Position numbers: made by a program | In this document: piece after piece, positions 2,703 through 8,322 of the stretch | How the letters are laid out: each line of letters starts with the position of its first letter | Numbering within the stretch: position 1 is the first letter of the stretch | Origin: Octopus sinensis | Taxonomy: Eukaryota | Direction of reading: 5' to 3' | DNA length: 64,000 nt | Assembly: GCF_006345805.1 (NCBI RefSeq) | Contig: NC_043001.1 | Span: 75,330,001-75,394,000 of the forward strand

Positions 2703-2762
<60 letters not shown>

Positions 2763-5700
2763 AAAGGGCTTAGTAAAATAAATTACTTTGCCGCATACTG
2801 AACTCGTTAGAAATAGCAGCTAAAAAAACTATTTCTAACACTTAAAGAAAACCTCTCTCGTATAGTGCTTGCTCAATTCAACCCAAGAAAGTATGAGGGT
2901 AGAGACATTAAAAAATCAAATGCAAAGGTTATTTGAGTACGTACGTTTCAAGATTAGCCAAGTTCGACCCTTCTCTCATCAGCTCAGAATGCCCTTGTTT
3001 GAGTTTGAAAACACTGAAAATGGGAGCATACCCTTTCGGCTTGTTATCGCTTCTGAAGATCTGTTCCCAACTAACAGTGCTAGCTAACTCAAATATGCAA
3101 GAGAAAAATTTCTGTTCTCCCCTTTCCACCAGCGTGGGTTAAAATCAGCAAACACTATCCTTTTTTTTTCGGTAAAATCCAAGACAATTAAGTAGAGAGA
3201 GATGAATTATAATTTCAACAATTGAGGGTAAAATTAATTAATTATTAATCAATTTCACCAAGTATTCAGTATGCAAAGGGACCATTTAAGGCAAATTCAA
3301 ATTATTACATTATATAAAAGGGCTTAGTAAAATAAATTACTTTGCCGCATACTGAACTCGTTAGAAATAGCAGCTAAAAAAACTATTTCTAACACTTAAA
3401 GAAAACCTCTCTCGTATAGTGCTTGCTCAATTCAACCCATTCTGTTCTCCCCTTTCCACCAGCGTGGGTTAAAATCAGCAAACACTATCCTTTTTTTCGG
3501 TAAAATCCAAGACAATTAAGTAGAGAGAGATGAATTATAATTTCAACAATTGAGGGTAAAATTAATTAATTAATTAATCAATTTCACCAAGTATTCAGTA
3601 TGCAAAGGGACCATTTAAGGCAAATTCAAATTATTACATTATATAAAAGGGCTTAGTAAAATAAATTACTTTGCCGCATACTGAACTCGTTAGAAATAGC
3701 AGCTAAAAAAACTATTTCTAACACTTAAAGAAAACCTCTCTCGTATAGTGTTCCCAACTAACAGTGCTAGCTAACTCAAATATGCAAGAGAAAAATTTCT
3801 GTTCTCCCCTTTCCACCAGCGTGGGTTAAAATCAGCAAACACTATCCTTTTTTTTTTTCGGTAAAATCCAAGACAATTAAGTAGAGAGAGATGAATTATA
3901 ATTTCAACAATTGAGGGTAAAATTAATTAATTAATTAATCAATTTCACCAAGTATTCAGTATGCAAAGGGACCATTTAAGGCAAATTCAAATTATTACAT
4001 TATATAAAAGGGCTTAGTAAAATAAATTACTTTGCCGCATACTGAACTCGTTAGAAATAGCAGCTAAAAAAACTATTTCTAACACTTAAAGAAAACCTCT
4101 CTCGTATAGTGCTTGCTCAATTCAACCCAAGAAAGTATGAGGGTAGAGACATTAAAAAATCAAATGCAAAGGTTATTTGAGTACGTACGTTTCAAGATTA
4201 GCCAAGTTCGACCCTTCTCTCATCAGCTCAGAATGCCCTTGTTTGAGTTTGAAAACACTGAAAATGGGAGCATACCCTTTCGGCTTGTTATCGCTTCTGA
4301 AGATCTGTTCCCAACTAACAGTGCTAGCTAACTCAAATATGCAAGAGAAAAATTTCTGTTCTCCCCTTTCCACCAGCGTGGGTTAAAATCAGCAAACACT
4401 ATCCTTTTTTTTTCGGTAAAATCCAAGACAATTAAGTAGAGAGAGATGAATTATAATTTCAACAATTGAGGGTAAAATTAATTAATTAATTAATCAATTT
4501 CACCAAGTATTCAGTATGCAAAGGGACCATTTAAGGCAAATTCAAATTATTACATTATATAAAAGGGCTTAGTAAAATAAATTACTTTGCCGCATACTGA
4601 ACTCGTTAGAAATAGCAGCTAAAAAAACTATTTCTAACACTTAAAGAAAACCTCTCTCGTATAGTGCTTGCTCAATTCAACCCAAGAAAGTATGAGGGTA
4701 GAGACATTAAAAAATCAAATGCAAAGGTTATTTGAGTACGTACGTTTCAAGATTAGCCAAGTTCGACCCTTCTCTCATCAGCTCAGAATGCCCTGTTTGA
4801 GTTTGAAAACACTGAAAATGGGAGCATACCCTTTCGGCTTGTTATCGCTTCTGAAGATCTGTTCCCAACTAACAGTGCTAGCTAACTCAAATATGCAAGA
4901 GAAAAATTTCTGTTCTCCCCTTTCCACCAGCGTGGGTTAAAATCAGCAAACACTATCCTTTTTTTCGGTAAAATCCAAGACAATTAAGTAGAGAGAGATG
5001 AATTATAATTTCAACAATTGAGGGTAAAATTAATTAATTAATTAATCAATTTCACCAAGTATTCAGTATGCAAAGGGACCATTTAAGGCAAATTCAAATT
5101 ATTACATTATATAAAAGGGCGATAACAAGCGATAACAAGCCGAAAGGGTATGCTCCCATTTTCAGTGTTTTCAAACTCAAACAAGGGCATTCTGAGCTGA
5201 TGAGAGAAGGGTCGAACTTGGCTAATCTTGAAACGTACGTACTCAAATAACCTTTGCATTTGATTTTTTAATGTCTCTACCCTCATACTTTCTTGGGTTG
5301 AATTGAGCAAGCACTATACGAGAGAGGTTTTCTTTAAGTGTTAGAAATAGTTTTTTTAGCTGCTATTTCTAACGAGTTCAGTATGCGGCAAAGTAATTTA
5401 TTTTACTAAGCCCTTTTATATAATGTAATAATTTGAATTTGCCTTAAATGGTCCCTTTGCATACTGAATACTTGGTGAAATTGATTAATTAATTAATTAA
5501 TTTTACCCTCAATTGTTGAAATTATAATTCATCTCTCTCTACTTAATTGTCTTGGATTTTACCGAAAAAAAAAGGATAGTGTTTGCTGATTTTAACCCAC
5601 GCTGGTGGAAAGGGGAGAACAGAAATTTTTCTCTTGCATATTTGAGTTAGCTAGCACTGTTAGTTGGGAACAGATCTTCAGAAGCGATAACAAGCCGAAA

Positions 5701-8288
5701 GGGTATGCTCCCATTTTCAGTGTTTTCAAACTCAAACAAGGGCATTCTGAGCTGATGAGAGAAGGGTCGAACTTGGCTAATCTTGAAACGTACGTACTCA
5801 AATAACCTTTGCATTTGATTTTTTAATGTCTCTACCTCATACTTTCTTGGGTTGAATTGAGCAAGCACTATACGAGAGAGGTTTTCTTTAAGTGTTAGAA
5901 ATAGTTTTTTTAGCTGCTATTTCTAACGAGTTCAGTATGCGGCAAAGTAATTTATTTTACTAAGCCCTTTTATATAATGTAATAATTTGAATTTGCCTTA
6001 AATGGTCCCTTTGCATACTGAATACTTGGTGAAATTGATTAATTAATTAATTAATTTTACCCTCAATTGTTGAAATTATAATTCATCTCTCTCTACTTAA
6101 TTGTCTTGGATTTTACCGAAAAAAAAAGATATGTTTTGCTGATTTTAACCCACGCTGGTGGAAAGGGGAGAACAGAAATTTTTCTCTTGCATATTTGAGT
6201 TAGCTAGCACTGTTAGTTGGGAACAGATCTTCAGAAGCGATAACAAGCCGAAAGGGTATGCTCCCATTTTCAGTGTTTTCAAACTCAAACAAGGGCATTC
6301 TGAGCTGATGAGAGAAGGGTCGAACTTGGCTAATCTTGAAACGTACGTACTCAAATAACCTTTGCATTTGATTTTTTAATGTCTCTACCCTCATACTTTC
6401 TTGGGTTGAATTGAGCAAGCACTATACGAGAGAGGTTTTCTTTAAGTGTTAGAAATAGTTTTTTTAGCTGCTATTTCTAACGAGTTCAGTATGCGGCAAA
6501 GTAATTTATTTTACTAAGCCCTTTTATATAATGTAATAATTTGAATTTGCCTTAAATGGTCCCTTTGCATACTGAATACTTGGTGAAATTGATTAATTAA
6601 TTAATTAATTTTACCCTCAATTGTTGAAATTATAATTCATCTCTCTCTACTTAATTGTCTTGGATTTTACCGAAAAAAAGGATAGTGTTTGCTGATTTTA
6701 ACCCACGCTGGTGGAAAGGGGAGAACAGAAATTTTTCTCTTGCATATTTGAGTTAGCTAGCACTGTTAGTTGGGAACAGATCTTCAGAAGCGATAACAAG
6801 CCGAAAGGGTATGCTCCCATTTTCAGTGTTTTCAAACTCAAACAAGGGCATTCTGAGCTGATGAGAGAAGGGTCGAACTTGGCTAATCTTGAAACGTACG
6901 TACTCAAATAACCTTTGCATTTGATTTTTTAATGTCTCTACCCTCATACTTTCTTGGGTTGAATTGAGCAAGCACTATACGAGAGAGGTTTTCTTTAAGT
7001 GTTAGAAATAGTTTTTTTAGCTGCTATTTCTAACGAGTTCAGTATGCGGCAAAGTAATTTATTTTACTAAGCCCTTTTATATAATGTAATAATTTGAATT
7101 TGCCTTAAATGGTCCCTTTGCATACTGAATACTTGGTGAAATTGATTAATTAATTAATTAATTTTACCCTCAATTGTTGAAATTATAATTCATCTCTCTC
7201 TACTTAATTGTCTTGGATTTTACCGAAAAAAAGGATAGTGTTTGCTGATTTTAACCCACGCTGGTGGAAAGGGGAGAACAGAAATTTTTCTCTTGCATAT
7301 TTGAGTTAGCTAGCACTGTTAGTTGGGAACAGATCTTCAGAAGCGATAACAAGCCGAAAGGGTATGCTCCCATTTTCAGTGTTTTCAAACTCAAACAAGG
7401 GCATTCTGAGCTGATGAGAGAAGGGTCGAACTTGGCTAATCTTGAAACGTACGTACTCAAATAACCTTTGCATTTGATTTTTTAATGTCTCTACCCTCAT
7501 ACTTTCTTGGGTTGAATTGAGCAAGCACTATACGAGAGAGGTTTTCTTTAAGTGTTAGAAATAGTTTTTTTAGCTGCTATTTCTAACGAGTTCAGTATGC
7601 GGCAAAGTAATTTATTTTACTAAGCCCTTTTATATAATGTAATAATTTGAATTTGCCTTAAATGGTCCCTTTGCATACTGAATACTTGGTGAAATTGATT
7701 AATTAATTAATTAATTTTACCCTCAATTGTTGAAATTATAATTCATCTCTCTCTACTTATTGTCTTGGATTTTACCGAAAAAAAGGATAGTGTTTGCTGA
7801 TTTTAACCCACGCTGGTGGAAAGGGGAGAACAGAAATTTTTCTCTTGCATATTTGAGTTAGCTAGCACTGTTAGTTGGGAACAGATCTTCAGAAGCGATA
7901 ACAAGCCGAAAGGGTATGCTCCCATTTTCAGTGTTTTCAAACTCAAACAAGGGCATTCTGAGCTGATGAGAGAAGGGTCGAACTTGGCTAATCTTGAAAC
8001 GTACGTACTCAAATAACCTTTGCATTTGATTTTTTAATGTCTCTACCCTCATACTTTCTTGGGTTGAATTGAGCAAGCACTATACGAGAGAGGTTTTCTT
8101 TAAGTGTTAGAAATAGTTTTTTTAGCTGCTATTTCTAACGAGTTCAGTATGCGGCAAAGTAATTTATTTTACTAAGCCCTTTTATATAATGTAATAATTT
8201 GAATTTGCCTTAAATGGTCCCTTTGCATACTGAATACTTGGTGAAATTGATTAATTAATTAATTAATTTTACCCTCAATTGTTGAAAT

Positions 8289-8322
<34 letters not shown>

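What the first reader, a model, noticed from the sequence alone, without database searches (positions are those of the whole stretch)
2760..8290. Array of nine hammerhead ribozymes in a 553-bp tandem repeat: candidate retrozyme / circular-RNA system
Seen: each complete non-coding unit contains CTGATGA - helix II - GAAAC-gtac-GTA closed by helix I (tgag/ctca). Predicted + strand cleavage follows 5241, 5796, 6349, 6902, 7455 and 8007, which would give 552-555-nt monomers. Known: minimal type I hammerheads occur in Penelope-like element pLTRs and in tandem non-LTR retrozymes of metazoans, whose transcripts self-cleave to monomers that circularise. Inference: this is a young non-autonomous retrozyme-like family, possibly copied by rolling reverse transcription of a circular RNA using PLE enzymes. 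As I recall, the unit is longer than typical animal retrozyme monomers. I cannot tell whether this family is already catalogued.
Basis: partly seen in the sequence, partly recalled or inferred. Interest (0 to 1): 0.9.

Follow-up and report, generated by a model that had tools for sequence, protein, structure and literature searches.

The report
Hammerhead-ribozyme repeat array (retrozyme) in octopod-like genome
A 5.5-kb block of near-identical 553-base non-coding repeats, each carrying a hammerhead self-cleaving RNA motif, looks like a new member of the known animal "retrozyme" class of parasitic circular-RNA elements, inserted head-to-head into a TA microsatellite.

Summary
Nine identical 45-nt hammerhead (HHR) cores lie exactly where stated, and predicted cleavage gives 552-555-nt monomers. 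The block is not one head-to-tail array. It is two arms joined head-to-head: 3 HHRs on the minus strand (2757-5120, with two HHR-less deleted units) and 6 on the plus strand (5121-8292). Both outward 3' ends abut (TA)n.

The motif has the full catalytic core, type I topology and a 2-bp helix III with a palindromic loop. Two copies pair into a double hammerhead. My descriptor hits 5 of 300 shuffled windows. It also finds a second, unrelated HHR at 34989-35061. Degraded Penelope-like elements (PLEs) lie in the window, and their best named relatives are octopod.

Against: no Rfam hammerhead model scores either motif; the pair at the base of helix II (10.1-11.1) is G.U, not G-C; no second locus, RNA or cleavage could be checked; folding energy is not exceptional against real genomic background.

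Best reading: a young non-LTR retrozyme, probably PLE-mobilised. It is a new member of a known kind. The 553-nt unit is above the 170-400 nt of the 2020 survey but inside the 51-972 bp of a 2026 preprint.

The parts
2706..2762 (.). Left flanking (TA)n microsatellite, 29 copies; the minus arm's 3' end merges into it
   Evidence: (TRF)
2757..5120 (-). Minus-sense arm. In monomer coordinates, read right to left: 169/170-553, a full unit (555 nt), then 1-429 | 71-381 | 53-553 (two internal deletions), then 1-181
4737..4781 (-). HHR core copy; predicted cleavage between 4737 and 4736
4182..4226 (-). HHR core copy; predicted cleavage between 4182 and 4181
2938..2982 (-). HHR core copy; predicted cleavage between 2938 and 2937
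3440..3750 (-). HHR-less remnant (monomer 71-381) bounded by two deletion junctions near 3749/3750 and 3439/3440. The deletions remove 194 and 224 nt, including the ribozyme, and give TRF periods of 361 and 329
5121..5130 (+). Centre junction: a 10-nt filler that repeats the first 10 nt of the plus arm. The junction is not symmetric: the minus arm stops at monomer ~170 and the plus arm starts at monomer 439
5121..8292 (+). Plus-sense arm: 5'-truncated unit (monomer 439-553), five full units (555, 553, 553, 553, 552 nt), then a 3' partial unit (monomer 1-285)
5197..5241 (+). HHR core copy. The full domain with extended helix I is 5182-5256; cleavage after 5241
5752..5796 (+). HHR core copy; cleavage after 5796
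6305..6349 (+). HHR core copy; cleavage after 6349
6350..6902 (+). Reference monomer from cleavage site to cleavage site: 553 nt, GC 34.5%, CTGATGA at monomer position 509
6858..6902 (+). HHR core copy; cleavage after 6902
7411..7455 (+). HHR core copy; cleavage after 7455
7963..8007 (+). HHR core copy; cleavage after 8007
8289..8322 (.). Right flanking (TA)n microsatellite, 17 copies; the plus arm's 3' end merges into it

Best explanation
The block is a young insertion of a non-autonomous, non-coding retroelement of the animal (non-LTR) retrozyme type. Each 553-nt unit encodes a type I hammerhead ribozyme. A multimeric transcript would fold neighbouring ribozymes into a double hammerhead through the palindromic helix III (ACGUACGU). 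It would cut after the GUA triplet and release 553-nt monomers with 5'-OH and 2',3'-cyclic phosphate ends. A host RtcB-type tRNA ligase could close these into circles. A Penelope-like element (PLE) reverse transcriptase/GIY-YIG endonuclease would copy multimeric or circular RNA back into DNA by target-primed reverse transcription. At this locus both strands of a cut (TA)n microsatellite seem to have primed at TA-rich sites of the RNA, giving two 5'-truncated arms joined head-to-head. Shown here: the repeat anatomy, the motif, its dimer pairing in silico, the (TA)n flanks and PLE remains in the window. Inferred: cleavage, circularisation, the identity of the mobilising enzyme and the priming mechanism.
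For: The full HHR core (CUGAUGA, GAAA, U16.1-A17) with three helices in type I order occurs 9 times in identical form. The descriptor hits 5 of 300 shuffled windows, mean 0.017. A second HHR of unrelated sequence has the same architecture at 34989-35061: helix I of 5 bp plus an extension, a long helix II closed by G-C, helix III of 2 bp with a palindromic AUAU loop, and a GUC site. All three helices differ in sequence between the two families but keep their pairing. Helix III of 2 bp with a palindromic tetraloop is what Cervera & de la Pena 2014 describe for metazoan type I HHRs that act as dimers (passages). Two copies cofold at -38.0 kcal/mol against 2 x -13.3, with an 8-bp intermolecular helix III and helix I formed in trans. 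The unit has low GC and no ORF above 91 aa, and there is no Pfam or protein homologue for the longest unit ORF, which was scanned in both arms. The six full units differ at only 8 of 555 alignment columns, none in the HHR. The arms are head-to-head with outward 3' ends in (TA)n. Those ends fall at monomer 181 and 285, which are two of the unit's only four TATA/ATAT sites. Craig et al. 2021 describe tandem plus inverted 5'-truncated copies and microsatellite/(TA)n bias for PLEs (passages). PLE remains lie at 36330-39835(-) and 39822-40626(+): a GIY-YIG Pfam hit and an RT piece 66% identical to an Octopus sinensis protein, whose relatives carry RVT_1 plus GIY-YIG. Li et al. 2026 report retrozyme consensus lengths of 51-972 bp and descent from PLE pLTRs (abstract and Results).
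Against: No Rfam hammerhead family is listed, neither at gathering score on the whole window nor at E<=10 on 2600-8500 or on a 111-nt stretch. The 10.1-11.1 pair at the base of helix II is G.U, whereas G10.1-C11.1 is called highly conserved. The single-motif MFE is no better than shuffles (z -0.05; 86 of 200 shuffles fold as well), and the MFE structure pairs part of the core. The monomer's circular fold is z -5.0 against 100 shuffles but only -1.6 SD against real 553-nt segments of the window, and 7 of 71 of those are as stable. Its strand asymmetry is ordinary: 20 of 71 segments show as much. There is no copy of the unit elsewhere in the window and no similarity to the window's PLEs, and no HHR was found next to those PLEs. 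With identical copies there is no covariation. No RNA data, no cleavage assay and no genome-wide search were possible.
Confidence: 0.65

Rival explanations
1. DNA-level satellite. One HHR-bearing unit (a PLE pLTR relic or old retrozyme copy) was amplified locally by unequal crossing-over or replication slippage, and a fold-back or template-switch event inverted part of it. The ribozyme is a passenger or relic, and the locus produces no circular RNA and no new copies.
For: Only one locus was seen, with no other copy in 64 kb. Internal deletions and homopolymer-length variants are typical of DNA-level array turnover. The 10-nt templated filler at the centre fits replication or repair template switching. 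The window holds other palindromes without HHRs (8322-8637 and 21495-21812), so inverted duplications arise here by other routes. The G.U at the base of helix II may weaken the ribozyme.
Against: All nine HHRs are intact and identical, while the variants lie elsewhere in the unit. Both outer ends sit in (TA)n at TA-rich unit positions, and the arms are oriented 3'-outward, as expected for target-primed insertion. A second HHR element in the window has the same head-to-head layout next to (TA)n.
Confidence: 0.2
2. Chance look-alike: the CTGATGA...GAAA...GTA arrangement is a coincidence inside an ordinary tandem repeat and has no catalytic activity.
For: Rfam hammerhead models give nothing. G.U replaces G10.1-C11.1. 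The single-motif fold is no better than shuffles. The nine copies are one independent occurrence.
Against: The descriptor did not ask for a palindromic helix III, an extended helix I (4 bp + internal loop + 6 bp) or a two-part helix II, yet all are present. A second, canonical-core HHR (G-C, GUC) with the same architecture is in the window and Rfam misses it too, so the Rfam negative is uninformative for this architecture. Tandem context, PLE co-occurrence and low GC match the published class.
Confidence: 0.08
3. Assembly artefact: the inverted arrangement or the copy number comes from chimeric or fold-back long reads or a mis-joined repeat, although the unit itself is real.
For: Craig et al. 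2021 note that such tandem/inverted structures often cause assembly problems. The homopolymer-length differences between units look like long-read error.
Against: The arms are not mirror images: the left arm has two deleted units that the right arm lacks, and the centre junction is asymmetric (monomer ~170 against 439) with a 10-nt filler. A fold-back read would give a symmetric junction.
Confidence: 0.07

Closest known systems
Non-LTR (metazoan) retrozymes: coral, mussel and axolotl families of Cervera & de la Pena 2020 (PMC7229834); vertebrate families of Li, Clavereau & Pollet 2026 (bioRxiv 10.64898/2026.07.22.740005)
   Same: Tandem non-coding repeats of low GC, one type I HHR per unit, no LTRs, co-occurrence with PLEs. 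Helix III of 2 bp with a tetraloop and a weakened base of helix II resemble the axolotl HHR_Amex2, which has U.U there and cleaves better as a dimer.
   Different: The 553-nt unit is above the 170-400 nt of the 2020 paper, though inside the 51-972 bp of the 2026 preprint. Helix II is long and two-part (26 nt). The host appears to be an octopod, for which my literature searches found no HHR or retrozyme report. The array is split into two head-to-head arms. RNA expression is unknown.
Hammerheads of Penelope-like element pLTRs (Cervera & de la Pena 2014, PMC4209133; Craig et al. 2021, PMC8557442)
   Same: Short helix I (4-5 bp), larger helix II, small palindromic helix III and presumed action as dimers. 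The tandem plus inverted 5'-truncated insertion structure and the microsatellite target bias also match.
   Different: There is no RT/GIY-YIG ORF in or next to the array. The nearest PLE remains are about 28 kb away and share no sequence with the unit. G10.1-C11.1 and the extra unpaired base 5' of helix II described for PLE min-HHRs are not present.
Newt/salamander satellite 2 and Schistosoma Sm-alpha-type HHR repeats (named from the passages and from my own recall)
   Same: Tandem genomic repeats transcribed into self-cleaving multimers. A weak helix III means the double hammerhead is needed.
   Different: Those units are about 330 nt and have conserved loop 1-loop 2 contacts. Such contacts could not be assessed here.
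Plant LTR retrozymes (Cervera et al. 2016, PMC4918200; search listing only)
   Same: Non-autonomous retroelement that yields circular RNA through HHR cleavage.
   Different: Plant elements use type III HHRs in two LTRs, have PBS and PPT, GC above 55%, and depend on Ty3-type LTR retrotransposons (legend passage). None of this applies here.

Membership tests
Hammerhead ribozyme, type I | Conserved core C3-U4-G5-A6-N7-G8-A9 ... G12-A13-A14 ... A15.1-U16.1-H17 | tested here: met
   CUGAUGA ... GAAA ... U-A is present in all 9 copies; H17 = A
Hammerhead ribozyme, type I | Three helices around the core, with helix I open (5' and 3' ends in helix I) | tested here: met
   Helix I is UGAG/CUCA plus CAAGGG/CCUUUG beyond a 5x5 internal loop. 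Helix II is 4 bp + 2x2 internal loop + 5 bp. Helix III is A-U and C-G with a GUAC loop
Hammerhead ribozyme, type I | G10.1-C11.1 pair at the base of helix II (called highly conserved in PMC4209133) | tested here: not met
   The array HHR has G10.1.U11.1. The second HHR at 34989-35061 has G-C. Axolotl HHR_Amex2 with U.U at this place still cleaves
Hammerhead ribozyme, type I | Score at or above the Rfam hammerhead covariance model threshold | tested here: not met
   No hammerhead family is listed at gathering score or at E<=10. The canonical-core second HHR is missed as well, so the test has low power for this architecture
Hammerhead ribozyme, type I | Short helix III with a palindromic loop that allows a double hammerhead | tested here: met
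   ACGUACGU is self-complementary. The cofold gives an 8-bp intermolecular helix, -38.0 against -26.6 kcal/mol for two monomers
Hammerhead ribozyme, type I | Site-specific self-cleavage | not testable with these tools
   Needs in vitro transcription
Non-LTR (animal) retrozyme | Tandem repeats, each unit with a type I HHR, low GC, no coding capacity | tested here: met
   Five complete units plus partial ones in the plus arm, one complete unit plus partial and deleted ones in the minus arm. GC is 34.5%, the longest ORF is 91 aa, and the longest unit ORF (scanned in both arms) has no Pfam or protein homologue
Non-LTR (animal) retrozyme | Monomer length within the reported range | tested here: met
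   553 nt against 51-972 bp; it lies outside the 170-400 nt of the 2020 abstract
Non-LTR (animal) retrozyme | Co-occurrence with Penelope-like elements in the genome | tested here: met
   PLE RT and GIY-YIG remains at 36330-40626
Non-LTR (animal) retrozyme | Sequence relationship of the unit to a PLE pLTR | tested here: inconclusive
   No similarity to the two degraded PLEs in the window. The genome's other PLEs could not be searched
Non-LTR (animal) retrozyme | Multiple dispersed loci (a family) and expression as linear and circular monomers | not testable with these tools
   No eukaryotic genome or transcriptome collection was available. There is no other copy within the window
Autonomous Penelope-like element (array = its pLTRs) | RT plus GIY-YIG ORF between or next to the repeats | tested here: not met
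   No such ORF lies in 2757-8292 or its flanks
Plant-type LTR retrozyme | Type III HHRs in two LTRs, with PBS and PPT | tested here: not met
   The HHR is type I and the layout is a tandem array, not two LTRs around an insert. PBS and PPT were not searched

The most novel reading that the evidence does not exclude
The locus records a single, very recent PLE-type integration in which both strands of a cut (TA)n microsatellite primed reverse transcription at internal UAUA sites of a multimeric or circular retrozyme RNA. Rolling copying then produced two multi-unit cDNAs, which were joined head-to-head. That would be the first structural picture of how animal retrozymes integrate. It would also explain why they appear as arrays, and it would make the family, apparently unreported in cephalopods, a tractable active system.
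Probability: 0.25. Interest if true: 0.65.

Novelty: new member of a known kind. Interest (0 to 1): 0.45.

Why it matters
Animal retrozymes are a recently recognised source of abundant small circular RNAs, and how they are mobilised is still inferred rather than shown. A near-pristine insertion gives concrete, testable junctions for the proposed PLE-dependent, target-primed mechanism: the units are 99-100% identical, both 3' ends lie in a TA microsatellite at TA-rich positions of the unit, and there is a head-to-head join. If the host is an octopod, as the neighbouring transposon proteins suggest, it would add cephalopods to the taxa with candidate ribozyme-derived circRNAs. It also shows that Rfam's hammerhead models miss this long-helix-II, mini-helix-III architecture. 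The kind of element itself is already known.

Tried and rejected
1. Rfam covariance models were run four times: whole window at gathering score, 2600-8500 at E<=10, a 111-nt stretch around one HHR and the second HHR element. No hammerhead family was listed. Because the canonical-core second HHR is also missed, I treat this as low sensitivity, not as refutation.
2. Folding energy as evidence for a structured circular RNA. The z-score is -5.0 against shuffles. Against real 553-nt segments of the same window the monomer is only -1.6 SD from the GC trend, and 7 of 71 segments are as stable. I rejected this as strong evidence.
3. Strand asymmetry of folding (-152.2 against -120.3 kcal/mol). It is ordinary: 20 of 71 background segments show as much, and it follows G+T content. 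Rejected.
4. Single-motif MFE is no better than shuffles.
5. Search for relatives through a spurious ORF of the unit (89 aa, 5650-5916 minus strand) in 5.8 billion protein clusters found no candidate.
6. An exact 24-nt HHR stretch against genome contigs gave 0 matches. That collection holds only bacteria and archaea, so this says nothing about eukaryotes.
7. An HHR or min-HHR next to the window's PLE remains: none found with the relaxed or minimal descriptors. The one extra relaxed hit, 10831-10940, spans a telomere-like repeat and I take it for chance.
8. The two PLE fragments abutting head-to-head near 39830 as an example of one twin-primed PLE insertion. Rejected: they are only 45-50% identical in protein, so they are different elements.
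9. tRNA-like parts: none in the window.
10. A helix-base-skipping explanation for the two internal deletions did not fit the predicted structure (inspection output).
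Full report
**What is in the sequence.** Window 2757-8292 is filled by copies of one non-coding unit. TRF does not report the main period because it stops at 500. The repeat finder gives start-to-start spacings of 552-555. The pattern CTGATGA-N(10-40)-GAAACGTACGTA has 9 matches, all the same 45-mer, 3 on the minus and 6 on the plus strand. 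None of 100 shuffles gave a match. The pieces between them are 555, 553, 553, 553 and 552 nt. I use 6350-6902 as the reference monomer (553 nt, GC 34.5%).

**Anatomy of the block.** BLASTN of the monomer against the window shows two arms in opposite orientation.
- Minus arm, read in its own sense from 5120 down to 2757: monomer 169/170-553, one full unit, then 1-429 | 71-381 | 53-553, then 1-181. The middle stretch carries two internal deletions of 194 and 224 nt. Each removes the ribozyme, and they explain the TRF periods of 361 and 329.
- Plus arm, 5121-8292: monomer 439-553, five full units, then 1-285.
- The arms therefore lie head-to-head, with 5'-truncated ends at the centre and 3' ends pointing outward.
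- The centre is asymmetric and holds a 10-nt filler that repeats the first 10 nt of the plus arm.
- Both outer ends run into (TA)n (2706-2762 and 8289-8322).
- The 3' ends fall at monomer 181 and 285. These are two of the unit's only four TATA/ATAT sites (74, 176-178, 282, 395).
- The six full units differ at 8 of 555 alignment columns, none of them in the ribozyme.
- No copy of the unit lies elsewhere in the window.

**Is the motif a hammerhead?**
- The core is complete: CUGAUGA, GAAA, then A15.1-U16.1 and A17.
- Helix I is UGAG/CUCA, followed by a 5x5 internal loop and then CAAGGG/CCUUUG.
- Helix II is 4 bp, a 2x2 internal loop, 5 bp and a tetraloop.
- Helix III is only A-U and C-G, capped by GUAC, so ACGUACGU is an 8-nt palindrome.
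- Two copies cofold at -38.0 kcal/mol against 2 x -13.3. The dimer has an 8-bp intermolecular helix III and helix I formed in trans, which is the classical double hammerhead.
- My structural descriptor (helix I >=4 bp, II >=3, III >=2) finds 10 sites in the window. On 300 dinucleotide shuffles it finds 0 sites in 295 and 1 site in 5.
- Passages of Cervera & de la Pena 2014 describe metazoan type I hammerheads with a 1-2 bp helix III and a small palindromic loop that act as dimers in tandem repeats. They describe PLE variants with a short helix I and a larger helix II.

**Evidence against the motif.**
- Rfam lists no hammerhead family at gathering score or at E<=10.
- The pair at the base of helix II is G.U, whereas G10.1-C11.1 is called highly conserved. 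The axolotl HHR_Amex2 has U.U there and still cleaves, better as a dimer.
- The single-motif MFE is no better than shuffles (z -0.05; 86 of 200 fold as well). The MFE structure also pairs part of the core.

**An independent second hammerhead.** The tenth descriptor hit, 34989-35061 (+), is unrelated in sequence but has the same build.
- Helix I is 5 bp plus a 7-bp extension. Helix II is long and closed by six pairs starting with G-C. Helix III is 2 bp with a palindromic AUAU loop. The cleavage triplet is GUC (MFE z -2.17, 3 of 200 shuffles fold as well).
- It sits in the right arm of a ~370-bp palindromic element (about 34737-35108) next to (TA)n.
- The left arm is 98% identical but has lost one A of GAAA.
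- Rfam misses this textbook core too, so the Rfam negative has little weight for this architecture.
- Two unrelated families with the same fold in one window, where 0.017 hits are expected, make chance unlikely.

**Context.** The window is full of transposon remains.
- Helitron parts lie at 25268-27207, LINE-like RT/endonuclease at 28937-31610, and zf-RVT ORFs at 389-676 and 52368-53624.
- A frameshifted PLE lies on the minus strand at 39835-36330. By my recall, its PKIHK and RP(V/I) stretches and SFDVVNLYSNIP are characteristic PLE reverse-transcriptase motifs. It also has a C-x4-C-x2-C linker and a GIY-YIG region.
- A second PLE endonuclease fragment lies at 39822-40626 (+), with a Pfam GIY-YIG hit at 2.2e-5.
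- The RT piece, read with X at its one in-frame stop, has 45 relatives at E<=1e-5 among 314 candidates. The best named hit is Octopus sinensis at 66%, followed by O. bimaculoides, Argonauta hians and Mytilus. Relatives carry RVT_1 plus a C-terminal GIY-YIG.
- The 418-aa LINE-like ORF is closest, among named hits, to Argonauta hians at 62%.
- I infer an octopod-like host. No tool names the species.
- The two PLE fragments are only 45-50% identical, so they are separate elements. No hammerhead was found beside them.

**How it most likely works.** By analogy with published retrozymes (abstract and passages of PMC7229834; abstract and Results of the 2026 preprint), I propose four steps.
1. The array is transcribed.
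2. Adjacent ribozymes dimerise and cleave.
3. The 553-nt monomers are ligated into circles by an RtcB-type ligase.
4. A PLE enzyme copies multimeric or circular RNA into the genome.

The layout here matches what Craig et al. 2021 describe for PLEs (passages): partial tandems, an adjacent inverted 5'-truncated copy and a microsatellite, partly (TA)n, target bias. The 3' ends at TA-rich unit positions suggest priming by microhomology with the cut (TA)n. All of this mechanism is inferred. Only the anatomy is shown.

**Controls that weakened the case.**
- The circular monomer folds at -152.2 kcal/mol, z -5.0 against 100 shuffles.
- Against real 553-nt segments without TA runs it is only -1.6 SD from the GC trend, and 7 of 71 segments are as stable.
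- The 32 kcal/mol difference between strands is ordinary: 20 of 71 segments show as much.
- I therefore do not use RNA structure as evidence.

**Rivals.**
- Local DNA-level amplification with a fold-back inversion (0.2). Only one locus was seen, and other palindromes without hammerheads occur at 8322-8637 and 21495-21812.
- A chance motif (0.08).
- An assembly artefact of the inverted arrangement (0.07). The non-mirror arms and the asymmetric junction argue against it.

**Novelty.** The kind of element is known. The unit length is inside the 51-972 bp range of the 2026 preprint and above the 170-400 nt of the 2020 abstract. Three checks gave no report of such elements in cephalopods:
- 'hammerhead ribozyme' + 'octopus': 5 papers, none on this.
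- 'retrozyme' + 'cephalopod': only the PLE paper.
- A term search inside the 2026 Octopus vulgaris repeat paper: 0 occurrences of hammerhead, ribozyme or retrozyme.

These searches cover only the held library, and supplements were closed. Repbase and Dfam could not be consulted, so I cannot say that the family is uncatalogued.

**What stayed unchecked.**
- Read support for the assembly.
- Self-cleavage.
- Genome contigs, which holds only prokaryotes, gave 0 matches to a 24-nt stretch of the ribozyme.

Noticed in passing
window 34737-35108: A ~370-bp palindromic element next to (TA)n (34680-34735). Each arm carries a second, unrelated hammerhead with a canonical core (G10.1-C11.1, GUC site, palindromic ACAUAUGU helix III). 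The right-arm copy (34989-35061, +) is intact. The left-arm copy has lost one A of GAAA. The arms are 98% identical and head-to-head, like the main array. Rfam does not detect it.
   Followed up: yes
window 36330-39835 (-) and 39822-40626 (+): Two degraded Penelope-like elements abut head-to-head: a frameshifted, near full-length copy and a 5'-truncated endonuclease fragment. Both have a C-x4-C-x2-C linker before the GIY-YIG domain. They are only 45-50% identical in protein, so they are different families. The best named relative is from Octopus sinensis (66%). No hammerhead was found at their ends.
   Followed up: partly
window 8322-8637: A near-perfect ~315-bp palindrome (centre at 8480; inner arms 8423-8479/8481-8537 are 100% complementary) lies between two (TA)n blocks (8289-8322 and 8672-8699), immediately right of the array. 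It has no hammerhead core (it has CTGATAG rather than CTGANGA). Its origin is unknown.
   Followed up: partly
window 21495-21812: Another zero-spacer palindrome (159-nt arms, 77% complementary). It was not examined further.
   Followed up: no
window 12748-17785, 31160-31566 and many others: Very long (TA)n/(AT)n tracts (up to ~360 bp) and many other microsatellites; 106 TRF rows in 64 kb. There is also a short telomere-like (CCCTAA)n stretch at 10860-10911.
   Followed up: no
window 25268-27207 (+), 28937-31610 (-), 52368-53624 (+), 389-676 (-): Helitron remains (Helitron_like_N 3.1e-23, PIF1 5.7e-15); a LINE-like element with RVT_1 and AP-endonuclease pieces; and an intact 418-aa ORF with zf-RVT, whose best named relative is from Argonauta hians (62%). 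No clear host-gene exon was found in the window.
   Followed up: partly
window ~2420-2440 and ~33830-33850: A short shared stretch (…caatgactgaaacaa…) suggests another dispersed repeat (SINE-like?) near both hammerhead elements. It was seen by eye only.
   Followed up: no
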